64,000 nucleotides of DNA from Escherichia phage HK6: the sequence record PP724615.1. One strand, given 5' to 3'. Within the stretch, counting starts at the first letter, position 1. Every line of letters begins with the position of its first letter. Under the pieces are notes generated by a model that ran no database searches, had not been told where the DNA came from, and saw nothing but the letters and a program-made list of their open reading frames with translations. A program made the position numbers and the translations under genes. Shown piece by piece: positions 11,164-19,811 of this stretch.

Positions 11164-13038
11164 ATGAATCGCAATGAAGAACTAAAGTATAAAGAAATGC
11201 AGGCGTTAATTAGAAACTGCAAAGAGATTATCGAAGGGTCAGCAGATGAAGAGCTGCTGTTTAATAATGCTAATAAACCCTCAGAACGTTTCCCTACACA
11301 AAGGGATATGCTTGCAGGTGAGTTGAGTAAGTATCTGATTCTAGAAGAAATGCCAATTCAGATTCGAAATGCTCATATGATTGGGGATATTCATTTCCAT
11401 GATGCTGATTATGCTGCATTAGGCATGACTAATTGTTGTCTGGTAGCTCTGGAAGATATGTTAAAGAATGGTATGAAGGTTGGTAATGCTGAAATTAGCA
11501 CTCCAAACTCTATTACCACTGCGGCGGCTATTACTGCTCAAATTATCACTCAGGTTAGCTCCCATCAGTATGGTGGTACTTCTGTAGATCGCCTTGATGA
11601 AGTATTAGCCCCTTATGTTCGTAAATCCTATGACAAAAATCATGCGTTTGCAAAACGTTGGACTAAGGATGAAGCCAAAGCATCCGTAATGGCTACGGAG
11701 ATGACTGAAAAAGAAGTCTATGACGCTTGTCAGGGTTTAGAATATGAAATCAATACCATGTTCAACTCTAATGGTCAGAGTCCATTTATTACCTTTGGTT
11801 TTGGTCTAGGAACTTCTTGGGAAGCACGTCTAGTACAGAAAGCAATACTGAAAGTACGCATGGATGGTTTAGGTATCAATAAACGTACAGCTATCTTCCC
11901 AAAACTGGTATTTGTACTTCGTGATGGTGTTAACATGAAACCAGGAGATGTTAATTATGACATCAAGAAGTTAGCTATGAAATGTACTGCTGAACGTATG
12001 TATCCAGATTATATCAGCTATGACAAGGTTGTAGAAGTTACTGGAGACTACAAAGTTTCTATGGGCTGCCGTTCATTCCTAGCTGCTACAGAAGATGGTG
12101 AAACTGCCGGTCGTAATAACTTAGGTGTTGTTTCTGTAAACTTGCCTAGAATTGCTATCGAAGCTGAAGGAAATATTGACCTATTCTTTGATTTGCTTGA
12201 GCTACGTGTGGATACAGCGTTAAAAGCATTGGAGTGGAGAGTTGATCGCTTAAAATACATTCAAGCTAAAGCTGCACCTATCCTCTATATGTCCGGAGCC
12301 TTTGGGTTACGCTTGGGGCCTGATGAGTATGTGTTCGATCATTTCTATAACCGTGCTTCTGTATCTCTAGGGTATATTGGTTGCCATGAAATGCTACAGT
12401 TCATGTTTGGCAAAGATGTAGACACAATGTCCGAGACCTGCATCAAGTTTGTTCAGCGTGTATTGCAGTACATGCGGGATAGAGTCGATCAGAAGAAGGA
12501 AGAGACTAAGTTAGGTTATAGCTTGTATGCTACACCGTCAGAGTCCCTATGCGATAGGTTTTGCCGTTTAGATCGTGAATATTTCCCAGAGCATGAAGAT
12601 ATTCTGTCTAAAGGATACTACACTAACTCGCACCACCTTGATGTAGAACGTAAAGTTGCTCCCAATGTGAAATTTGATTATGAATCTAACTTTACTCCTA
12701 TTGCTTCTGGTGGGTGCATTTCCTATGTAGAACTACCAGATATGAAACGATTCCCAGATGCACTGGAATGGGTTATTAATTATGCTGCTAGTAAAGTTCA
12801 TTACTTCGGTATTAATACTCCAGTGGATTCTTGTGGTAAATGTGGATTCTTAGGTGAAACAGTAGCATCCGAAGATGGGTTTAAGTGCCCTATCTGTGGT
12901 AATCATGACCCCGAAACTCTTGAAGTAACTCGTCGAGTTTGTGGGTATCTTGGAAATCCAGGTGCTCGTCCATTTAACCCCGGCAAACAGCACGAGGTAA
13001 TGGGCAGAGTGAAGCATCAAGATATTCGAGCTAAGTAA
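11164..13038 (+). CDS. nrdD: anaerobic ribonucleoside-triphosphate reductase (class III)
   Basis: C-terminal glycyl-radical motif 'RVCGYLG' and Zn ribbon 'CGKCG...CPICG'. 624 aa. Confidence 0.9.
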   Translation: MNRNEELKYKEMQALIRNCKEIIEGSADEELLFNNANKPSERFPTQRDMLAGELSKYLILEEMPIQIRNAHMIGDIHFHDADYAALGMTNCCLVALEDMLKNGMKVGNAEISTPNSITTAAAITAQIITQVSSHQYGGTSVDRLDEVLAPYVRKSYDKNHAFAKRWTKDEAKASVMATEMTEKEVYDACQGLEYEINTMFNSNGQSPFITFGFGLGTSWEARLVQKAILKVRMDGLGINKRTAIFPKLVFVLRDGVNMKPGDVNYDIKKLAMKCTAERMYPDYISYDKVVEVTGDYKVSMGCRSFLAATEDGETAGRNNLGVVSVNLPRIAIEAEGNIDLFFDLLELRVDTALKALEWRVDRLKYIQAKAAPILYMSGAFGLRLGPDEYVFDHFYNRASVSLGYIGCHEMLQFMFGKDVDTMSETCIKFVQRVLQYMRDRVDQKKEETKLGYSLYATPSESLCDRFCRLDREYFPEHEDILSKGYYTNSHHLDVERKVAPNVKFDYESNFTPIASGGCISYVELPDMKRFPDALEWVINYAASKVHYFGINTPVDSCGKCGFLGETVASEDGFKCPICGNHDPETLEVTRRVCGYLGNPGARPFNPGKQHEVMGRVKHQDIRAK

Positions 13039-13080
13039 GCTAATCAGCCGGGTTGCTAGTCGACCTGGCTTTTATTTTAT

Positions 13081-13109
13081 TTGCTTTCATCCAAAAATTT
13101 ATATATAAT
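13081..13109 (+). promoter_or_regulatory. T5-type early promoter TTGCTT-N17-TATAAT
   Basis: Followed by the conserved 'ATAAATTTGAGAGGAG' leader box and the ATG at 13138. Confidence 0.65.
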
Positions 13110-13137: not shown

Positions 13138-13518
13138 ATGGAATTAAAGCCCTATATAGTTGAATCTACATGTGGTAGTTTCCATCTGGGTGTGGATGAT
13201 ATTGCTGAGGCTGTCTTTGCTGCTACAGGTGATTACTCGCATATAGAGGGTGTTGCATACCCTACCATTATTGGCGATTGGGTGGAAACAAATCTAGATG
13301 TATCGCCTTATAACCCATATTGCTTGTTTGATGAAGACAGAGATGAAGTAAAATGTAATCTTGAATTTGTGTATAATAGAGTGTTAAAAGTATACCAACG
13401 TAGCCCCAATGGGTACGAAGATATTACTTGGAGTATTAAACAGTATCTTAAAGATATATACTCTAGTTTTTCTGACGAAGACCTAGAAATAGTTGCAGTG
13501 GAGTTTAATAATGACTAA
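13138..13518 (+). CDS. hypothetical acidic protein (126 aa)
   Basis: GAGAGGAGAAAGAT-ATG RBS. No radical-SAM CxxxCxxC motif, so not NrdG. Confidence 0.5.
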   Translation: MELKPYIVESTCGSFHLGVDDIAEAVFAATGDYSHIEGVAYPTIIGDWVETNLDVSPYNPYCLFDEDRDEVKCNLEFVYNRVLKVYQRSPNGYEDITWSIKQYLKDIYSSFSDEDLEIVAVEFNND

Positions 13519-13717
13519 GAATGTGAAACACCTTAAATATCGCTTAATTTACAACGGACGTATGGAAACAGAAGATCTGGCCCAGTTAGCTATTAATTCT
13601 AAGGAGGTTACAGTGCGTGCGCTGGCAATTGAAAAGTTGCGTGCCTCTTATGAAAATCGTGTTATGGAATTAGAGGAGAAACTTTATGGCATTCTCGAAG
13701 CCGATGCTACCAGATAA
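13511..13717 (+). CDS. hypothetical protein (~69 aa)
   Basis: ATGA overlap with the preceding gene ('MTKNVKHLK'). Confidence 0.35.
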   Translation: MTKNVKHLKYRLIYNGRMETEDLAQLAINSKEVTVRALAIEKLRASYENRVMELEEKLYGILEADATR

Positions 13718-13907
13718 GGGTTTAAACGCCGCTTTGGAAAACGCATTAATGCAGCACTGGGAAACTGGCTATAAGGATGGTGTTGAATCCTGCGCTACTA
13801 TGCTAGAAGTTATTGCTAATACCTTAATGGAGAAAGGCAATAAAGAATTAGCTGAGCTATTAGATAGTATTGGGCAAAACTTCAGAGAACAGGTGAAAAA
13901 TGCGTAG
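13686..13907 (+). CDS. hypothetical protein (73 aa)
   Basis: ORF overlapping its neighbours by a few codons, typical of phage operon packing. Confidence 0.35.
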   Translation: MAFSKPMLPDKGLNAALENALMQHWETGYKDGVESCATMLEVIANTLMEKGNKELAELLDSIGQNFREQVKNA

Positions 13908-14736
13908 ATTAATTATTATTAGTGGTGCAGGTTTGAGTGTTGAAAGTGGTGTACGAGCTTTTCGTACTAATACTGCTAGCGGTAAAGCATTGTGGGATGA
14001 TTATGATCTAGAAGAAGTATGTAATATTCATGCCTTTCGTGGTAATTTTTATCATAAAACCCATATGTTTTACAACAAGCGTCGTGAAGAGCTAAAAACT
14101 GTTGAACCCAATCTTGCGCATTTGCGTATTGGTGAATGGTATAAACAATATCCAGGTCAAGTAGTAAACTTGACTACCAACGTTGATGACCTTATTGAGC
14201 GTGCTGGCGTTTCACATAGTGACATTCTGCACATTCACGGATATTTAAAAGAGGTTGTTGTAGCTGATAGCTACAATAGTAGCAATAAACGGATTATTGA
14301 TGTAGGATACAGTTCTATCGATCCGGATGATTATAAATGGGTTAAACCTAATGTAATCTTCTTTGGAGAGCATGCTCCAGCATATGCAGAAATGTACAAT
14401 GTTTTTGATGGTATTACCAGTCAAGATATGATTGTTGTGGTTGGTTGTTCTAACCAAGTAATTAACTTCTACTGGGAATTATTTCCTGTTCTTAATTTGA
14501 CTGCTGCGAAACTTATGGTTGTTAACTACCATGATAGTGCCCTCGCAGCGGAACCGGGCTATCAAGGTATGACTCGTAGTGAGATGTACCAGCTGGAGGA
14601 ACGCGGTATCCCTTACTGGAGTAAAGGTGCGGTAGATGCTTTCAGTGACCCTGATTTTATTGCTCGTGTAGAAGCTCATTTAGAGGGTAGACCTTATGTG
14701 TTGAGAAGCAAGGGAAACAGATATGTCCATAGTTAA
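13900..14736 (+). CDS. SIR2-family NAD-binding protein (sirtuin-like)
   Basis: N-terminal 'IISGAGLSVESGVRAFR' matches the sirtuin GAGIS-ESGIP-FR motif, and 'ILHIHGYL' matches the catalytic HG motif. No Zn-ribbon cysteines. 278 aa. Confidence 0.6.
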   Translation: MRRLIIISGAGLSVESGVRAFRTNTASGKALWDDYDLEEVCNIHAFRGNFYHKTHMFYNKRREELKTVEPNLAHLRIGEWYKQYPGQVVNLTTNVDDLIERAGVSHSDILHIHGYLKEVVVADSYNSSNKRIIDVGYSSIDPDDYKWVKPNVIFFGEHAPAYAEMYNVFDGITSQDMIVVVGCSNQVINFYWELFPVLNLTAAKLMVVNYHDSALAAEPGYQGMTRSEMYQLEERGIPYWSKGAVDAFSDPDFIARVEAHLEGRPYVLRSKGNRYVHS

Positions 14737-14905
14737 ATCTGTATATACACATCCCGATGACATATTTGTATGGGCAGATGGTAGTTGGTGCTATCGATGT
14801 GAGTTATGGGAAATGGACTATAAATCCGATGACTATGGCGTCATATATGTTGATACGGTTGAGTATGATACGTTCTTAGAAAGGAACAAAAATGGAAATA
14901 AGTAA
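14723..14905 (+). CDS. hypothetical protein (60 aa)
   Basis: Short ORF, weak support. Confidence 0.3.
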   Translation: MSIVKSVYTHPDDIFVWADGSWCYRCELWEMDYKSDDYGVIYVDTVEYDTFLERNKNGNK

Positions 14906-15398
14906 TACTCCAATTATTTTTCTAGATATTGATGGGGTGCTCAATTCGAGCATCTCCCACCATCATGCACCTGATAATGAAAAGATTTTCTTTGGAAGTG
15001 ACTGGGTTTTCAAACCGCTTCTCAAGGCTTTTCAGGATTTTATTCGTCCTTCTCCGATAATGATTGTTGGAGTATCCTCATGGTTCTCTGTCAGGAATGA
15101 GATGGAAAACGTTCAGATTATGACCGGATTAGGTCTTATCGATCGTTTTCTTGGTACAACGGATTTTACTGGGGGTGGATTATCTAGGGGTAATTCTGTT
15201 CTTCGCTTCGTTGAAAAGCATAAGCTCAAACATTGGTGTGTGCTTGATGATGCTGGTGCTATGATGTATCAGTATCCAACGGTTATAGTCAACGGTAGGA
15301 CTGGGATAAATCTTCAAGATTTAAAAGCTGTTAGCTATATGCTAGAATTTAGCCCAGATCTTGAAATGTGTAAATCCTTACAACAATTTAAGGTGTAA
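14892..15398 (+). CDS. HAD-superfamily phosphatase, putative
   Basis: 'IIFLDIDGVLNS' matches HAD motif I (DxDGT/V), and 'VLDDAG' is a motif IV-like segment. 168 aa. Confidence 0.5.
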   Translation: MEISNTPIIFLDIDGVLNSSISHHHAPDNEKIFFGSDWVFKPLLKAFQDFIRPSPIMIVGVSSWFSVRNEMENVQIMTGLGLIDRFLGTTDFTGGGLSRGNSVLRFVEKHKLKHWCVLDDAGAMMYQYPTVIVNGRTGINLQDLKAVSYMLEFSPDLEMCKSLQQFKV

Positions 15399-15400
15399 AT

Positions 15401-15829
15401 ATGTTCAATAATGTATTCTCTAAAGAAGCTAACCCAATTTTGGTTAACTTTTGGCGTACTCTCCCAGCTAGCCTGTATAATGAGGCTATTAACTCCTTGA
15501 AAATATGGTGTGAGAATAATGAAATCTCCTTTGCTTTTAAAGATGATATTGATGAGGCCCCCTGTATTGGTTTAATTGTTCAGGTAGAGGAGGGTCTTGA
15601 GGAGATTGTCGGCTGGAAAGAGTTAGATGAAATAGGCTTAGTTTTTGCGTTAAACTATAAGCTGTTTATGCCTGCTAAGCATCGCCTCGTTGTTAACTAT
15701 AAAACTAGTGAATCTCCTGGTTTTCAAGTTAATGAACGTTACGGTTGGTCTTACTTACCGGAAGAAGTAAATGATGGTATCCAAAAACTTCGCCGTTTTG
15801 GTTATCAAATTCCGGGTTTAACTGCTTAA
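15401..15829 (+). CDS. hypothetical protein, paralog A (142 aa)
   Basis: Shares 'PCIG..V....E.EW.EL..GL..ALN' and a C-terminal 'R.G..IPGL' with the next gene. Confidence 0.5.
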   Translation: MFNNVFSKEANPILVNFWRTLPASLYNEAINSLKIWCENNEISFAFKDDIDEAPCIGLIVQVEEGLEEIVGWKELDEIGLVFALNYKLFMPAKHRLVVNYKTSESPGFQVNERYGWSYLPEEVNDGIQKLRRFGYQIPGLTA

Positions 15830-15838
15830 GGAGGAAGA

Positions 15839-16231
15839 ATGGAACAAGTATATTGGCGTCAGATTGACCCTAGTTTGGTGAAGCGTGCGGAAAAGCTGCT
15901 ACAACGTTGGTTAGGGGTAAGGCAAGCCTCCTTCACTTTTCCGGAGCAGCAAACGGATGATCCCTGCATTGGCGTTTTCCTGTCTGGATATGCCGGGGAA
16001 TGGGAGATGGACTGGAATGAATTGTCAGCTATGGGTTTAATTGTTGCCCTAAACTTCTCTATATTCCATCCACGTGGTTTGGCCATATGTCGCGTGCCTG
16101 ATGACGGTTGTTCGCCCCATCTTTTACAGGTGGAAAATGATATTTGGGAGTACACTCCAGATATTCTCGCAGAAGCTAAAGAACAATTAAATCGTGTTGG
16201 GATTTATGTTCCGGGATTAAATGATGAATAA
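15839..16231 (+). CDS. hypothetical protein, paralog B (130 aa)
   Basis: Tandem paralog of 15401..15829, with a GGAGGAAGA-ATG RBS. Confidence 0.5.
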   Translation: MEQVYWRQIDPSLVKRAEKLLQRWLGVRQASFTFPEQQTDDPCIGVFLSGYAGEWEMDWNELSAMGLIVALNFSIFHPRGLAICRVPDDGCSPHLLQVENDIWEYTPDILAEAKEQLNRVGIYVPGLNDE

Positions 16232-16418
16232 GGAATTTTGGAAAATAAAAGGGAAGATTTCTAAGTGGAATACTACAGGGAAAATTAGTAAGTCTCTAGA
16301 GATAGAGATAGCTAGAATGTTTACTGATCCTAATTTTGATATAGAAAAACTAAGCAAAGTAGATGCTAAAAAAGTAGATAAGTATATAGAAGAGATTAGA
16401 AGTATTTTAAGTGTCTAA
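16221..16418 (+). CDS. hypothetical protein (65 aa)
   Basis: ORF followed by the terminator at 16426-16450. Confidence 0.35.
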   Translation: MMNKEFWKIKGKISKWNTTGKISKSLEIEIARMFTDPNFDIEKLSKVDAKKVDKYIEEIRSILSV

Positions 16419-16425
16419 TCCACGT

Positions 16426-16450
16426 AACCGAGTCATTTTGGCTCGGTTTT
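16426..16450 (+). terminator. rho-independent terminator
   Basis: AACCGAG-loop-CTCGGTT hairpin followed by TTTT. Confidence 0.55.
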
Positions 16451-16494
16451 ATCCGTACTCAAGACCAATGATAGCACCATCCGGAAAATTTTAC

Positions 16495-16523
16495 TTGCAG
16501 GATGCCCAAAATCTTGATATAAT
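16495..16523 (+). promoter_or_regulatory. early promoter TTGCAG-N17-TATAAT
   Basis: Followed by a leader-box variant 'ATTTATATTGAATTGAGAGA'. Starts the long leader of the helicase gene. Confidence 0.5.
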
Positions 16524-17021
16524 ATTTATATTGAATTGAGAGACATTAGTAAAAATTGATTTTGCTAATTTTTCTTGTTTACAATCCGCGATACGGAACA
16601 GTTAGGCTGCCCCATTAAGGGTTGTTTTAACTGTTACGTGTTAGTTTTTAAACAAATAGTTAATAGAATACTTAGCGATCTACATCCCGTAGGAACCCTG
16701 GTAAGGCCTCGAAGCAACCTAGTGTGAGGTGGTTGTGAAGTGAGACGGGAAGAGTGAAAAACTCTGAGAAGTGATGACGTAAGGTATACTGCATCTAGTA
16801 TGAGCTAGTACATGAAGCATTAGGTGAGCAAATCTGGCTTAGCGGCCATCCTCAAGGATTTGTGCGGTATAGTGAAGCGGCAGTGTAGCGTGAAAGGGGA
16901 AGTTGCCACCCCCCTTCAGTATTTGCGATTAATTGTTGAGAAATTGACAGTAACAGTTGTTCTATTCTTTCTGAATAGTCCTAAAGAAAACTTATTTCAT
17001 TTCCAACACAGGAGTATTGTT

Positions 17022-19811
17022 GTGTTCTCAATCCTACAAGGTCATGCAGGATTTCATCGCGACTTAGCCACAGGCATTTGGCGAGAAGTTAAAGCAGAAG
17101 ACTATCTTTTTGCTAAAAGATTTTCCTCAAAGCATCCTGAAGGTAAACCAGCTTCAATGCCCTTCAAGTTTGATGTAATTGATGAAGTTGATCCTCAAAC
17201 CCTAGTAGAAATGCTCCCTCTTATGAGACGTTTAACGTCTGACCCTCATATCGTTGCGGTACGAGGTCGATGTCTTGCACCCAAAAATAACGTGCGGCGT
17301 AAGAAGGGCAACTTTAATGTATCTAACCCAAGTCATATAATTGCATTGGACGTGGATGGTATTGTAGATACAGGTGGTTGTAACAAGTTTGATCTTGTTG
17401 GCATGGCTCGACATATTATTAGGATGTTAAATAGTATTAGTGAGGATATGTTTCCTCTTGATGCAGGGTTTATTGCTCATGCATCGTCTTCGGCTGGGCT
17501 AAAACCAGGTATCCGAATGCACTTAATACTAGAATCTAATGTTAAAGTAACTCAGGGTCAAATCAAATTCTTATTTACATCTATCAACGAAAGTAGTAGA
17601 CAAAAGTATGGCTTTGATATTGCCGACTTAGCTTATTACTCTTCCGTACAGCTCCATTATTTTGCAGATCCGTTATTTACCGATGGTATAGTAGATCCGT
17701 TTAAAGCGGAGGGTGCCTCACGTCTGGTATTTGTTAAGGGTTCTAAAGTAAATTTACCTAATAATCTGGTTGACTATGAAACAACTAGAGGTGAGTTTAA
17801 AGAGGAGTTCTACTCTTTACTCGACCAAATTAAGGGTAAAAAAGCTGCCTCTGATAAAGTAGAGGAAACTATCAGCGAACTAGAAGAAGCTGAGGATGGA
17901 GTGTACCTACGTATTATACCTAAACTCTATCATAGAGCTTTGGAGGATGGTGTTGATTTTGCATGGCTAGAAAAAGAAATCCGTCCAGCCTTATCAGAAT
18001 ATATTGCAACTAAAGATAATAGTCGCAATATTCAAGATTACTTTAATAACGGTCGTAAGCAGGCTCTAAAAGCATTTGTTAATAATTCTAAACGTGATAT
18101 ACCTGATGTTTTAAAAGGTATTCCACTTAAAAAGCTAGAAACTAACTCTCTAGAAACTGATAACTTCTTGAAATTAAATACTGTACCACCAGAAGGTTAT
18201 ATGACTTTTGTAAAAGCAAGTCTAGGTACAGGTAAAACTACGGCGGTTGTGCGTTGGTTAGATTCAGGAGTTATTAAAGGTAATTTCTTAGCAATTACCA
18301 ATACTCGAGCACTGGTATCTTCAAATGCTAAGAAATTTAGTGCAGGACAATATGATAAGTCTGTAGATATGCTTAATTTTAAGCGTGGCGCTATTGACCG
18401 TATGTCCACAACTATACATTCTTTGCATAAGTTCAAGAGTTTTATTGGTCAAATTGATGCAATCTTTATCGATGAATGTGATGCTGTAATGAATGACCTA
18501 TTATTCGCCCCGGTTGTTAAACAACGTCGTGAATGTATTCAGGTTCTTCGGGATATTCTTGCAACTGCAAAAATCATTATATTATCTGATGGGGATATTA
18601 GTGCAGAAACAATTGAAGCATACGGTTCTTTGATTGAGTTTGATAAACCAGTAGCATTTTATAATCATCACCGTAAGATGCTGTCAAAAGCTCATGCTTA
18701 TGAGTTCCCTGACGAATCCAGTATTTGGGTTGCACTTCAGACTTCTCTAGAGATGGGTGAGAAATCTATCCTAGTATCTGACTGTGGTCCAGATGAACTG
18801 AATGAGAAGGGCATGGCGTTGCGTCGTAATACGGGTGCGTTAGTTAAGGAAATCCACTCAAACTCTACGTCTGATGTAGATATTCGACGTATTCTGGATT
18901 ACACAACTAATGAGTTAATTGACCAACAAATTGATTGCTTATTATGTAGCCCATCCGTAACGAGCGGTGTTGACTTTAACTATTTTGATAACGTATTCGT
19001 TATTACTAGGACCAGTAACCAAGCGCCAAACATGCGTTTTCAAGCAATCAGGCGCGACCGTGGCGCTCAGAACATTTATTATTTTATTGATAAATCTACG
19101 AGTGGATTCTCCGCAGGTTCTGAGCAATATAACATTGACGAGGGTTGGCTGGAGTTAGCACAGCAATTATACGCACGTCGCAGAGAGCTGGAATCTAGGA
19201 ACTATACTAGTACTTTACGTTACTATTTGCTTGATCAGGGTGCAACTATTGATATTTTCAGTGAAAGCTGGGGAACTATCGAAGGTGCGGGGAAAGAATA
19301 TACAGAAGAGCGAATCAAAGCCATTTTGTATTCAACCCCTGATTATTGTGCTCCACGCCATGCAGATGCGTATGAAGCTAAACTACTTCTTGTACGCTAT
19401 TATCATCTTGAGTCTATTAAAGATGTAACAGTTGAGCATGTTGAACAATATATCAAGGATAAACCGAATGATCGAGCTGCATTCTTCCATAAGATGCACG
19501 AGATGTTCTGGGAAGATATTAAGAAGTGTTCAAATGTCACTATCAAACCATTCATAGAAGCTCTGAAAGGTAAGAAGAAAGATTTCTTCCTTAAAACAGG
19601 TCAGAGTGCTAACCCAAAATATGCAAGAATGTATCTTGGTATGATGGGTATTGGTAAGGATATGAACACGGAGAATATTGTAGACTGGTACAGAACCTAT
19701 TGTAAAATCGAGTGTATGCCAATCCCATATAAGTTTATGACTGATGAGGAGAAACATATGCATGATGAAGCAATGGCAGAGCTAGGTGCTAGAAATGACA
19801 GTGAAGAATAA
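17022..19811 (+). CDS. SF2 helicase, replication-origin-binding-protein type
   Basis: Walker A 'LGTGKTTAV' and DExD 'IFIDECDAV'. Start placed at an in-frame GTG 7 nt downstream of AGGAG. The track start at 16824 (GTG) has no RBS. ~929 aa. Confidence 0.6.
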   Translation: MFSILQGHAGFHRDLATGIWREVKAEDYLFAKRFSSKHPEGKPASMPFKFDVIDEVDPQTLVEMLPLMRRLTSDPHIVAVRGRCLAPKNNVRRKKGNFNVSNPSHIIALDVDGIVDTGGCNKFDLVGMARHIIRMLNSISEDMFPLDAGFIAHASSSAGLKPGIRMHLILESNVKVTQGQIKFLFTSINESSRQKYGFDIADLAYYSSVQLHYFADPLFTDGIVDPFKAEGASRLVFVKGSKVNLPNNLVDYETTRGEFKEEFYSLLDQIKGKKAASDKVEETISELEEAEDGVYLRIIPKLYHRALEDGVDFAWLEKEIRPALSEYIATKDNSRNIQDYFNNGRKQALKAFVNNSKRDIPDVLKGIPLKKLETNSLETDNFLKLNTVPPEGYMTFVKASLGTGKTTAVVRWLDSGVIKGNFLAITNTRALVSSNAKKFSAGQYDKSVDMLNFKRGAIDRMSTTIHSLHKFKSFIGQIDAIFIDECDAVMNDLLFAPVVKQRRECIQVLRDILATAKIIILSDGDISAETIEAYGSLIEFDKPVAFYNHHRKMLSKAHAYEFPDESSIWVALQTSLEMGEKSILVSDCGPDELNEKGMALRRNTGALVKEIHSNSTSDVDIRRILDYTTNELIDQQIDCLLCSPSVTSGVDFNYFDNVFVITRTSNQAPNMRFQAIRRDRGAQNIYYFIDKSTSGFSAGSEQYNIDEGWLELAQQLYARRRELESRNYTSTLRYYLLDQGATIDIFSESWGTIEGAGKEYTEERIKAILYSTPDYCAPRHADAYEAKLLLVRYYHLESIKDVTVEHVEQYIKDKPNDRAAFFHKMHEMFWEDIKKCSNVTIKPFIEALKGKKKDFFLKTGQSANPKYARMYLGMMGIGKDMNTENIVDWYRTYCKIECMPIPYKFMTDEEKHMHDEAMAELGARNDSEE

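What the first reader, a model, noticed from the sequence alone, without database searches (positions are those of the whole stretch)
13900..14736. SIR2-like NAD-binding protein lacking the Zn ribbon, encoded in the early region
The product matches the sirtuin GAGIS-ESGIP-FR motif (ISGAGLSVESGVRAFR) and the catalytic HG motif (ILHIHGY), but it has no CxxC…CxxC Zn module.

SIR2 domains of this trimmed type also occur as NADase effectors of bacterial defence systems. In a phage, one could act as a protein deacylase or ADP-ribosyltransferase that reprogrammes the host, or it could manipulate NAD+ pools.

It is flanked by a HAD phosphatase and by small unknown ORFs, and the group could form a functional module.
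Basis: partly seen in the sequence, partly recalled or inferred. Interest (0 to 1): 0.5.

Follow-up and report, generated by a model that had tools for sequence, protein, structure and literature searches.

The report
Zinc-less sirtuin gene of T5-like phage
This is the long-annotated Sir2-like gene of T5-type phages (T5.102), an apparently active NAD+-using sirtuin that has lost its zinc-binding cysteines; it is co-transcribed with a HAD phosphatase and its real substrate has never been tested.

Summary
ORF 13900-14736 (+) encodes a 278-aa protein that passes the Pfam SIR2 threshold (E 9e-25). It keeps the GAGxS, F-R, N-x-D, H-G and FGE motifs and has only two cysteines and no CxxC.

The Zn module is not deleted. 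AlphaFold predicts a confident three-stranded sheet in its place.

Sequence and fold place it with classical class III deacylases (E. coli CobB, SIRT5, Sir2Af), including the YxxR motif. It does not match defence NADase SIR2 domains (no PADLOC hit).

The window is a T5-like phage. The gene is T5.102, annotated since the T5 genome, and 1007 phage records carry a homologue. All 120 close homologues lack CxxC and carry TTNVD in place of TQNxD.

Zn-less phage Sir2 proteins (2016) and the sirtuin plus Swiss-army-knife HAD neighbourhood with a Tpt1-like RNA-repair proposal (2022) are already published.

The HAD link holds in 29 of 32 T5-like loci and survives gene reordering.

Function remains untested. 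I rate protein lysine deacylase about 0.4 and RNA or ADPR-phosphate chemistry about 0.3-0.4.

Verdict: real, already known, moderate-to-low interest.

The parts
13900..14736 (+). Sir2-like gene (orthologue of T5.102), 278 aa. It is a class-III-type sirtuin without Zn-binding cysteines.
   Evidence: ORF. Pfam SIR2 E 9e-25. PHROG 2162. CobB is the best PDB match by sequence and by fold. 94% identical to T5.102. dN/dS 0.06-0.13 against close relatives.
13924..13965 (+). NAD-binding loop GAGLSVESGVRAFR (residues 9-22).
   Evidence: G9, A10, G11, S13, S16, G17, F21 and R22 are invariant in 51 diverse homologues. The loop aligns to the CobB GAGISAESGIRTFR.
14020..14085 (+). Acyl-pocket residues C41, Y58 and R61 (FYNKRR; the class III YxxR motif).
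   Evidence: All three are invariant. FYNKRR aligns with CobB FYNARR, and C41 aligns with CobB A76 by the offset derived. The equivalence to SIRT5 A86, Y102 and R105 comes from established knowledge, not from a test here.
14173..14241 (+). Catalytic core: TTNVD (residues 92-96, Thr in place of the usual Gln) and H113-G114.
   Evidence: T93, N94, V95, D96, H113 and G114 are invariant. TTNVDDL is present in nearly all of the 120 homologues. T at this position tracks loss of CxxC among library representatives.
14239..14355 (+). Small-domain segment that replaces the Zn module (residues 114-152). It contains no Cys or His ligands.
   Evidence: AF2 predicts strands 114-122, 131-134 and 147-152 with block pLDDT 92-98. 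The segment aligns to the Cys-bearing segments of CobB and Sir2Af2.
14892..15398 (+). Cap-less HAD phosphatase (HAD_SAK_2; orthologue of T5.105).
   Evidence: Pfam PF18143 E 7e-20. Invariant motifs are DIDGV, SSW, GG..RG and DD. AF2 pLDDT 94.6. Only weak fold hits to cap-less HADs including PNKP. Present next to SIR2 in 29 of 32 T5-like loci and in reordered loci.
14723..14905 (+). Small ORF (60 aa) between SIR2 and HAD, function unknown.
   Evidence: PHROG 5116, E 6e-30. Conserved in most T5-like loci.
15401..16231 (+). Two tandem DUF7415 paralogues (15401-15829 and 15839-16231; orthologues of T5.106 and T5.107).
   Evidence: Pfam PF24187, E 1.6e-34 and 7.3e-32. Present in 32 of 32 T5-like loci.
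13138..13907 (+). Three small upstream ORFs of the same transcription unit (13138-13518, 13493-13717, 13686-13907), function unknown.
   Evidence: PHROGs 11748, 5236 and 5827. Their presence varies among T5-like phages.
16221..16418 (+). Last small ORF of the unit (65 aa), function unknown.
   Evidence: PHROG 29527, E 1e-39. A close copy occurs in only one locus and weak matches in three others.
13081..13109 (+). Sigma-70-type promoter-like site: TTGCTT, 17-nt spacer, TATAAT.
   Evidence: Read directly from the sequence. It corresponds to the promoter annotated upstream of T5.100. It follows the nrdD terminator at 13046-13070.
16426..16452 (+). Putative rho-independent terminator (AACCGAG, loop, CTCGGTT, then a T-rich tail) that closes the unit.
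   Evidence: Read from the sequence. It is homologous to the terminator annotated after T5.107. The tool's scan missed it because the loop is 9 nt.

Best explanation
The gene encodes a catalytically competent, zinc-independent sirtuin of the class III (CobB/SIRT5) type. It is expressed from a T5 early promoter as part of a nine-ORF unit.

Shown:
- The fold is that of a classical sirtuin.
- All NAD+-binding and catalytic residues are intact.
- The acyl-lysine pocket residues are conserved, including the Tyr-x-x-Arg pair.
- The gene is under purifying selection.
- It belongs to a large phage-only clade.

Inferred mechanism: it binds NAD+, and a substrate oxygen attacks C1' of the nicotinamide ribose, releasing nicotinamide. 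His113 then activates the ribose 2'-OH to resolve the adduct. The most likely substrate is an acylated lysine on host or phage proteins. The YxxR pair and the small Cys41 would favour acidic acyl groups such as succinyl or malonyl as well as acetyl. The enzyme would therefore reset protein acylation early in infection and release an O-acyl-ADP-ribose.

The co-transcribed cap-less HAD phosphatase would act on a phosphorylated product or co-substrate of the same pathway. This last step is the weakest inference.
For: - Pfam SIR2, 88 bits.
- CobB is the best PDB hit by sequence (E 1.8e-17 for the single protein; 7.9e-31 with the clade profile).
- CobB is also the best hit by fold (E 4.5e-18; TM 0.86 normalised to the target), followed by Sir2Af1, SIRT5 and Sir2Af2.
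- NCBIfam CobB-type models are the best hits, although all fall below their equivalog cut-offs.
- Residues invariant in 51 sequences that are 54-85% identical to the query: G9, A10, G11, S13, F21, R22, C41, Y58, R61, N94, D96, H113, G114, F154, F155, E157, G182, S184 and N209.
- Pocket residues map onto CobB A76, Y92, R95, I131, H147, V187 and F190 (numbering offset derived).
- dN/dS is 0.06-0.13.
- The protein is acidic (pI 5.9; clade median 5.2), which fits a protein substrate better than polyanionic RNA.
- No RNA ligase, kinase, cREC, 2H, Nudix, Adps or Namat homologue occurs anywhere in the 64-kb window.
Against: - No enzyme assay exists for any member of this clade (literature searches).
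- The Gln of the sirtuin TQN(I/V)D motif is replaced by Thr throughout the clade. This Gln is Q in 91 of the 150 best representatives and is taken as near-universal from general knowledge.
- The V-Y-P substrate loop of CobB reads V-I-N-F here, so canonical activity may be altered.
- Gene neighbourhoods in several phage lineages point to cyclic-phosphate, RNA-end or ADPR chemistry rather than protein modification. T5-like phages have HAD. Vequintavirinae have Metallophos, Rnl1, cREC and kinase. Jumbo phages have 2H and a Nudix-cREC fusion.
- A protein deacylase has no obvious need for a dedicated HAD phosphatase.
- All NCBIfam CobB models score far below their cut-offs.
Confidence: 0.4

Rival explanations
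1. Tpt1/KptA-like RNA repair enzyme, as proposed by Iyer et al. 2022. The sirtuin would transfer ADP-ribose from NAD+ to an RNA 2'-phosphate left after cleavage by a host anticodon or metal-independent nuclease. It would then release ADP-ribose 1'',2''-cyclic phosphate and a clean 2'-OH. The HAD phosphatase would either heal the RNA end or dephosphorylate the ADPR-phosphate by-product.
For: - Published prediction for exactly this neighbourhood type, exemplified by the T5-like phage SP15 (PMC9503650, section 3.7.3).
- My own census of 34 non-T5 loci finds, next to SIR2: a calcineurin-like phosphoesterase (15 loci), an AAA_33 kinase (14), a T4 Rnl1-type RNA ligase (13), an ATP-dependent DNA ligase (15) and a MazG-like protein (15).
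- cREC lies between Rnl1 and the kinase in SPLA5a, and a Nudix-cREC fusion lies directly after SIR2 in a jumbo phage.
- The SIR2-HAD pairing survives inversion of gene order in L070, L071 and L077.
- The sirtuin two-step chemistry parallels that of Tpt1 (established mechanisms; inference).
- The clade-specific Q-to-T change sits in the active site.
Against: - The protein and its clade are acidic (net charge -7; clade median -12).
- The acyl-lysine pocket, the FGE loop and YxxR are kept as in deacylases.
- This phage window contains no RNA ligase, kinase or cyclic phosphodiesterase, and no tRNA genes.
- The Vequintavirinae kinase, phosphoesterase and Rnl1 set is already a complete heal-and-seal pathway that leaves no 2'-phosphate (established knowledge of T4 Pnkp/Rnl1).
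- 3 of 32 T5-like loci lack the HAD.
- The Phapecoctavirus and KVP40-like neighbourhoods show no annotated RNA-repair genes.
Confidence: 0.28
2. Component of the phage's NAD+/ADP-ribose counter-defence metabolism. SIR2 and HAD would act on soluble NAD+-derived molecules such as ADPR-1''-phosphate, ADPR-cyclic phosphate or immune signals, rather than on macromolecules.
For: - Relatives of the window's HAD sit directly upstream of a Prs-like plus NAPRTase-like pair in about 150-kb myoviruses (L072-L074). That pair has the architecture of NARP1 (Adps plus Namat), which was defined in the Vequintavirinae phage Bas63 (10.1101/2024.02.11.579819).
- NARP1 operons are known to recruit an ADPR-1''P phosphatase, a Macro domain in the published case (10.64898/2026.01.28.702374).
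- In SPLA5a the NARP1-like operon lies about 5 kb from SIR2 and is divergently transcribed.
- In the jumbo phage Yen9-04, SIR2 sits among an annotated NAMPT and cytidylyltransferase and an Acb1-like 2H enzyme with a Pfam match.
- ADPR-PP decays to ADPR-cyclic phosphate, a plausible substrate for the neighbouring cyclic-phosphate enzymes (inference).
Against: - A sirtuin consumes NAD+, which is counter-productive when defence systems are depleting it.
- No sirtuin is known to act on such small molecules, apart from the CobB phosphoribosyl-transfer activity cited in PMC9503650.
- This window has no Adps or Namat.
- The HAD-NARP1 association comes from one phage lineage only.
Confidence: 0.14
3. 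Macromolecular ADP-ribosyltransferase, analogous to SirTM or SIRT4/6, that modifies a host protein to take over or disarm the cell.
For: Sirtuins can ADP-ribosylate (PMC9503650). The T5 record already lists 'ADP-ribosylase' as a possible activity. The gene is expressed early. SIR2 diverges faster than its neighbours between T5-like genera, at 51% versus 90% amino-acid identity for the HAD.
Against: No Macro-domain partner occurs in the operon (Pfam). The catalytic His and YxxR of deacylases are retained. Nothing specific supports this reading.
Confidence: 0.1
4. Defence-type SIR2 NADase that depletes NAD+, for example for superinfection exclusion. This is the link the first reader suggested.
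For: Only the general fact that SIR2 domains can be NADases and that this one lacks Zn ligands.
Against: - No PADLOC model matches at E<=1.
- There is no SIR2_2 Pfam hit.
- Structural neighbours are all classical sirtuins.
- There is no sensor domain or partner such as HerA, SLOG or pAgo.
- The phage needs NAD+ itself: T5 has an NAD-dependent DNA ligase about 7 kb downstream.
Confidence: 0.03

Closest known systems
Phage T5 gene T5.102 (YP_006930.1), 'Sir2 (NAD-dependent deacetylase)', and its orthologues in hundreds of Demerecviridae
   Same: It is the same gene at the same position: nrdD, small ORFs, SIR2, small ORF, HAD, two DUF7415 genes, then the origin-binding gene. It is 94% identical in protein sequence. 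Up to 98% identity is found in other records.
   Different: Only minor differences: the C-terminal tail, and which small flanking ORFs are present.
E. coli CobB (PDB 1s5p, 6rxj), a class III sirtuin lysine deacylase
   Same: CobB is the best match by sequence and by fold. The two share GAGxS, FR, NxD, HG, FGE and YxxR (FYNKRR versus FYNARR), and a small module of similar length.
   Different: - About 24% identity over the structural alignment.
- No Zn-binding cysteines.
- Thr in place of the Gln of TQNID.
- VINF in place of VYP after the G-x-S motif.
- Cys41 in place of Ala76.
- An acidic protein.
- It scores far below the NCBIfam CobB cut-offs.
Human and zebrafish SIRT5 (desuccinylase, demalonylase, deglutarylase)
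   Same: Class III fold and the Tyr-x-x-Arg pair, plus a small residue at the Ala86-equivalent position (the residue roles come from established knowledge).
   Different: SIRT5 has the four-Cys Zn site and the Gln of TQN. Sequence alignment covers only the N-terminal 118-120 residues.
Sir2/CobB proteins of Vibrio phages KVP40, phiSt2 and phiGrn1 (Skliros et al. 2016, PMC5107563)
   Same: They are phage sirtuins already reported to lack the Zn ligand while keeping the catalytic His. The paper lists T5 as carrying a homologue. They belong to the same broad clade, at about 40% identity (Va3).
   Different: They have a different neighbourhood, with no annotated HAD. That study was also computational and transcriptional only.
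Tpt1/KptA RNA 2'-phosphotransferase
   Same: This is a proposed functional analogue. Both use NAD+, both have an oxygen nucleophile attacking C1'', and both use the ribose 2''-OH in a second step. The proposal rests on association with RNA end-processing enzymes (PMC9503650).
   Different: The fold is unrelated, so this protein is not a family member. Activity is untested. This phage window lacks an RNA ligase.
Defence-associated SIR2 domains (ThsA, DSR1/2, SIR2-HerA, SIR2-pAgo)
   Same: A Rossmann-type SIR2 superfamily fold that binds NAD+, and absence of a four-Cys Zn site.
   Different: There is no detectable match to any PADLOC model and no sensor partner. The FGE and YxxR deacylase features are retained. 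The gene is carried by a lytic phage.

Membership tests
Sirtuin / SIR2 family (Pfam PF02146) | Profile match above the curated gathering score | tested here: met
   88.1 bits against a cut-off of 24; E 9e-25; residues 9-187 cover 178 of the 180 model positions.
Sirtuin / SIR2 family (Pfam PF02146) | Rossmann NAD+-binding loop GAGxS...FR, the N-x-D motif and the catalytic His-Gly | tested here: met
   G9, A10, G11, S13, F21, R22, N94, D96, H113 and G114 align with the CobB residues. All are invariant in 51 homologues.
Sirtuin / SIR2 family (Pfam PF02146) | Gln of the TQN(I/V)D motif | tested here: not met
   The motif reads TTNVD. Thr93 is invariant in the clade. Among the best library representatives, 86 full-length sequences have Q and 38 have T, and T tracks loss of Zn ligands.
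Sirtuin / SIR2 family (Pfam PF02146) | Structural Zn site with four Cys (CxxC...CxxC) in the small domain | tested here: not met
   The protein has only C41 and C183, neither in the small module. No CxxC occurs in the query or in any of the 120 homologues. The module's fold is nevertheless predicted to persist.
Sirtuin / SIR2 family (Pfam PF02146) | Two-domain sirtuin fold | tested here: met
   AF2 pLDDT 91.3 and pTM 0.89. Foldseek finds CobB at E 4.5e-18 with TM 0.86 normalised to the target, and all 50 top hits are sirtuins. This is a prediction, not a solved structure.
Sirtuin / SIR2 family (Pfam PF02146) | NAD+-dependent deacylase or ADP-ribosyltransferase activity | not testable with these tools
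   No biochemical data were found in five literature searches.
Class III sirtuins (CobB/SIRT5 type) | Tyr-x-x-Arg in the acyl pocket, a small residue at the SIRT5 Ala86 position, and class III proteins as nearest relatives | tested here: met
   Y58 and R61 are invariant and FYNKRR aligns with CobB FYNARR. C41 aligns with CobB A76. CobB, Sir2Af1 and SIRT5 are the top hits. NCBIfam CobB equivalog cut-offs are not reached (91 bits against 320), so this is a divergent branch and not an orthologue.
Defence-associated SIR2 NADases (ThsA, DSR, SIR2-HerA, SIR2-pAgo; Pfam SIR2_2) | Match to defence SIR2 profiles, and fusion or linkage to a sensor or partner (SLOG, HerA, pAgo, large C-terminal domain) | tested here: not met
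   No PADLOC hit at E<=1 for SIR2 or its neighbours. No SIR2_2 hit. The protein is single-domain, and its neighbours are a HAD, DUF7415 proteins and small ORFs.
SirTM-type ADP-ribosylating sirtuins | Operon partner with a Macro domain | tested here: not met
   No Macro domain was found in any of the nine ORFs of the unit.
Phage 'RNA-repair' sirtuin clade of Iyer et al. 2022 (neighbourhood type 3) | Phage sirtuin adjacent to a Swiss-army-knife-type HAD phosphatase | tested here: met
   HAD_SAK_2 lies 156 nt downstream in the same transcription unit. The pairing is found in 29 of 32 T5-like loci and in reordered loci.
Tpt1/KptA-like RNA 2'-phosphotransferase function (analogy only) | Presence of the rest of a 2'-phosphate-generating repair pathway (cyclic phosphodiesterase, RNA ligase) in the same genome region | tested here: not met
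   tblastn with phage Rnl1, kinase, cREC, Metallophos, 2H and Nudix-cREC queries finds nothing in the 64-kb window or in the T5 regions held. These partners are present in other phage lineages. The rest of this phage's genome was not available.
HAD_SAK_2 phosphatases (neighbour gene) | HAD motifs I-IV (DxDxV nucleophile motif, Ser/Thr, basic residue, acidic pair) and a profile match | tested here: met
   PF18143, 72 bits against a cut-off of 27.5. D12, D14, S62, S63, R99, D119 and D120 are invariant in 17 homologues.

The most novel reading that the evidence does not exclude
The Zn-less, TTNVD-type phage sirtuins may not be protein deacetylases at all. They may be NAD+-dependent transferases acting on phosphate-bearing substrates, working with interchangeable phosphoesterases: HAD in T5-like phages, cREC and Metallophos in Vequintavirinae, and 2H and Nudix-cREC in jumbo phages. 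The substrates could be RNA 2'-phosphates (a Tpt1 analogue on a sirtuin scaffold) or ADPR-phosphate metabolites tied to NAD+ reconstitution and counter-defence. In the second case the HAD_SAK_2 enzyme would be a non-homologous replacement for the Macro-type ADPR-1''P phosphatase of NARP1-AP.
Probability: 0.35. Interest if true: 0.7.

Novelty: already known. Interest (0 to 1): 0.3.

Why it matters
The gene itself is not a discovery. It has been annotated since the T5 genome and is present in about a thousand phage records.

What remains open is the biochemistry of a large, phage-only sirtuin clade. The clade has dispensed with the structural zinc and changed the conserved active-site Gln, yet it is under purifying selection in the close T5-like relatives tested.

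Two outcomes are possible:
- If it is a plain deacylase, phages reset host protein acylation early in infection.
- If the context-based prediction is right, it would be the first sirtuin acting on RNA or ADPR-phosphates. That would add a new enzyme to phage RNA repair or to the NAD+-centred arms race.

T5 is genetically tractable, so the question is directly testable.

Tried and rejected
- **Defence-type SIR2 reading.** Rejected: no PADLOC hit, no SIR2_2 hit, and only classical sirtuins among the structural neighbours.
- **'Trimmed' protein with the small domain deleted.** Rejected: the segment 114-152 is present and confidently modelled.
- **Pseudo-enzyme.** Rejected: the catalytic residues are invariant and dN/dS is about 0.1.
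- **HAD fold search to separate a polynucleotide phosphatase from a small-molecule phosphatase.** Inconclusive: the best E-value is 3.8e-3, with cap-less HADs of both kinds among the hits. The HAD has no sequence match in the PDB.
- **Partner enzymes in this window.** A search for RNA ligase, kinase, cREC, 2H, Nudix, NARP1 and MazG homologues found none. A tRNA search found none.
- **Literature.** Searches for experimental work on T5 or other phage sirtuins found only genome notes and the two computational papers.
- **Reverse phosphorolysis idea.** I considered that the sirtuin might rebuild NAD+ from ADPR-1''P plus nicotinamide. I set it aside on thermodynamic grounds (my own estimate, not computed).
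- **Promoter and terminator scan.** It gave no enrichment over shuffles. The unit boundaries therefore rest on direct reading of the sequence and on homology to T5 annotations.
Full report
**1. Observation**

The ORF at 13900-14736 (+) exists and encodes 278 aa. It has an AGGTG ribosome-binding site 5 nt upstream of the ATG, and its start overlaps the stop of the preceding ORF.

It matches Pfam SIR2 (PF02146) with E 9e-25, 88 bits against a cut-off of 24. It matches PHROG 2162 'Sir2' with E 1e-119.

- GAGLSVESGVRAFR on GAGISAESGIRTFR
- TTNVDDL on TQNIDNL
- HIHG on HMHG
- KPNVIFFGE on RPHVVWFGE

The protein has two cysteines (C41, C183) and no CxxC.

**2. The zinc module is de-metallated, not deleted**

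The segment between H113-G114 and K149-P150 is about as long as the Cys-bearing segments of CobB and Sir2Af2.

An AlphaFold2 model built on 51 homologues has mean pLDDT 91.3 and pTM 0.89. It predicts three strands there (114-122, 131-134, 147-152) with block pLDDT of 92-98.

So 'lacking the Zn ribbon' should read 'lacking the Zn ligands'.

**3. Which kind of SIR2 it is**

Foldseek against the PDB gives CobB 1s5p first (E 4.5e-18, TM 0.86 normalised to the target). It is followed by Sir2Af1, SIRT5, Sir2Af2, Sir2Tm and SIRT2. All 50 listed hits are classical sirtuins.

No PADLOC defence model matches at E<=1, and Pfam does not report SIR2_2.

The class III hallmark Tyr-x-x-Arg is present (Y58, R61; FYNKRR against CobB FYNARR). 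C41 occupies the position of CobB A76. The numbering offset was derived. The roles of the equivalent SIRT5 residues Ala86, Tyr102 and Arg105 come from established knowledge.

NCBIfam CobB models are the best hits but fall far below their cut-offs. This is a divergent branch, not a CobB orthologue.

**4. Where it comes from**

The window is a T5-like phage. The 3.4-kb region matches 446 phage records, with 95-96% identity for the best.

In phage T5 the gene is T5.102 (YP_006930.1). It is annotated 'Sir2 (NAD-dependent deacetylase) ... ADP-ribosylase, transcription regulator'.

The order is nrdD, terminator, promoter, T5.100-T5.107, terminator, then the origin-binding and replication genes. In T5 this is the early region.

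In the window I read the following features:
- the nrdD terminator at 13046-13070
- a TTGCTT, 17-nt spacer, TATAAT promoter at 13081-13109
- a hairpin terminator at 16426-16452, homologous to the one annotated in T5

SIR2 therefore lies in a nine-ORF unit spanning 13138-16418.

**5. The clade**

tblastn finds a homologue in 1007 phage records. These include Demerecviridae, Vequintavirinae, Stephanstirmvirinae, Schizotequatrovirus and jumbo phages.

All 120 closest cluster representatives lack CxxC. Nearly all carry TTNVDDL and FYNKRR.

In 51 diverse members, which are 54-85% identical to the query, the NAD-binding, catalytic and pocket residues are invariant.

A profile search of 1.84 billion representatives gives 166 hits at E<=1e-30. 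Among the best 150, the 133 full-length sequences with a recognisable N-x-D motif split as follows:

| Residue before N-x-D | No CxxC | At least one CxxC |
|---|---|---|
| Thr | 31 | 7 |
| Gln | 9 | 77 |

Fisher's exact test gives p = 1e-14. This is not corrected for phylogeny.

Pairwise dN/dS against close relatives is 0.06-0.13, so the gene is under purifying selection.

**6. Prior literature**

- Skliros et al. 2016 (PMC5107563) reported that the Sir2/CobB proteins of KVP40-type Vibrio phages lack the Zn ligand, and named T5 as carrying a homologue.
- Iyer, Burroughs, Anantharaman and Aravind 2022 (PMC9503650, section 3.7.3) described a distinct phage sirtuin clade with three neighbourhood types. 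[quoted passage not shown] They proposed a KptA/Tpt1-like removal of RNA 2'-phosphates.
- I found no experimental study of any member.

The finding is therefore already known as a feature, while its function remains open.

**7. Neighbourhood, tested independently**

*The HAD gene.* The downstream gene 14892-15398 is HAD_SAK_2 (E 7e-20) with invariant HAD motifs.

*T5-like loci.* Among 32 T5-like loci:
- DUF7415 paralogues accompany SIR2 in 32.
- The HAD accompanies SIR2 in 29.
- In three distant T5-like contigs the order is inverted (HAD, one or two small ORFs, then SIR2) and DUF7415 is absent. This argues for a real SIR2-HAD link rather than inherited synteny.

*Non-T5 loci.* Among 34 non-T5 loci the recurrent neighbours are:

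| Neighbour | Loci |
|---|---|
| Calcineurin-like phosphoesterase | 15 |
| ATP-dependent DNA ligase | 15 |
| MazG-like protein | 15 |
| AAA_33 kinase | 14 |
| T4 Rnl1-type RNA ligase | 13 |

A cREC domain lies between Rnl1 and the kinase in Seunavirus SPLA5a.

*Jumbo phage.* In Yen9-04, SIR2 lies between an Acb1-like 2H enzyme and a Nudix-cREC fusion. An annotated NAMPT and PhoH are nearby.

*Other lineages.* Phapecoctavirus and KVP40-like loci show nothing informative.

**8. A second context for the HAD**

Relatives of the window's HAD sit immediately upstream of a Prs-like plus NAPRTase-like pair in about 150-kb myoviruses. That pair has the architecture of NARP1 (Adps plus Namat), which was defined in the Vequintavirinae phage Bas63.

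In SPLA5a a NARP1-like operon lies about 5 kb from SIR2 and is divergently transcribed.

A 2026 preprint shows that NARP1 operons can recruit a Macro-domain phosphatase that converts ADPR-1''P to ADPR. HAD_SAK_2 might be a non-homologous equivalent. This is my inference, and it rests on one phage lineage.

**9. Weighing mechanisms**

*For a lysine deacylase.* The complete deacylase active site and pocket are retained, including YxxR and FGE. The protein is acidic (pI 5.9; clade median 5.2; net charge -12). No RNA ligase, kinase, cREC, 2H, Nudix or NARP1 homologue occurs anywhere in the 64-kb window.

*For RNA or ADPR-phosphate chemistry.* Different phosphoesterase families appear next to SIR2 in unrelated phages, which looks like functional displacement. 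The Gln-to-Thr change sits in the active site. A deacylase has no obvious need for a phosphatase.

The HAD fold search could not discriminate. Its best E-value is 3.8e-3, and the hits are cap-less HADs including MDP-1, KdsC and PNKP.

My probabilities:

| Mechanism | Probability |
|---|---|
| Protein lysine deacylase | about 0.40 |
| Tpt1-like RNA repair | about 0.28 |
| NAD/ADPR counter-defence metabolism | about 0.14 |
| Protein ADP-ribosyltransferase | about 0.10 |
| Defence-type NADase | about 0.03 |

**10. Verdict**

The feature is real and correctly read. It is an already annotated and already discussed gene. The defence-NADase analogy is wrong, and the module idea is right and already published.

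Interest is moderate to low as a finding. The unanswered biochemical question is worthwhile and easy to test in T5.

Noticed in passing
window 14892-15398 (HAD; T5.105 in L001 5589-6095): PHROG 18062 is labelled 'Sir2 (NAD-dependent deacetylase)', but it matches the C-terminal half of the HAD protein (E 6e-58). RefSeq and pharokka-style records therefore list two 'Sir2' genes in T5-like phages. Pfam finds only HAD_SAK_2 in this protein. This looks like a propagated mis-annotation.
   Followed up: partly
L072 6001-9217; L073 5001-8519; L074 5001-8569: In about 150-kb myoviruses, HAD_SAK_2 relatives (37-43% identical to the window's HAD) lie directly upstream of a Prs-like plus NAPRTase-like pair. 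That pair resembles NARP1 (Adps plus Namat). The HAD may be an analogue of the Macro-type ADPR-1''P phosphatase of NARP1-AP.
   Followed up: partly
L045, L047, L048, L049 (Epseptimavirus-type loci) versus window 13900-15398: Between otherwise similar T5-like genomes, the SIR2 protein is only 51% identical while the adjacent HAD is 90% and NrdD up to 98% identical. dN is 0.30 for SIR2 against 0.07 for the HAD. The divergent allele type carries an insertion of about 20 aa in the flexible cofactor-binding loop. The window's allele is closer to Vequintavirinae SIR2 (60-64%) than to this allele, which suggests exchange between phage families.
   Followed up: partly
window 15401-15829 and 15839-16231: Two tandem paralogues each contain two DUF7415 repeats. 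They accompany SIR2 in 32 of 32 T5-like loci but are absent from the reordered HAD-then-SIR2 contigs. Their function is unknown.
   Followed up: no
L068 3842-4288 and 5763-6671 (Yersinia jumbo phage fHe-Yen9-04): The small gene annotated 'RNA ligase' two genes upstream of SIR2 best matches the anti-CBASS Acb1 family (PF23474, E 2.6e-17). The gene immediately after SIR2 is a Nudt16-like Nudix fused to a cREC domain. An annotated NAMPT and cytidylyltransferase lie just upstream.
   Followed up: no
L079 3004-6076 (Salmonella phage SPLA5a): A 177-aa ORF with no Pfam match sits between the Prs-like and NAPRTase-like genes. This is the position occupied by the Macro phosphatase in published NARP1-AP operons. 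tRNA-Lys and tRNA-Met genes lie about 1.1-1.3 kb beyond the NAPRTase-like gene.
   Followed up: no
window 11164-13038 (NrdD) versus L005, L007-L009, L019, L020, L045: The anaerobic ribonucleotide reductase comes in two allele classes among close T5-like phages, at about 99% or about 60% protein identity to the window. This is another sign of mosaic exchange in this region.
   Followed up: no
window 16453-16823: About 370 nt of apparently non-coding sequence lies between the operon terminator and the long ORF 16824-19811, which matches the T5.108 origin-binding gene. Only short mechanical ORFs are listed there. Part of it is conserved in T5 at 93% identity (window 16427-16665). It was not examined for RNA genes.
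   Followed up: no
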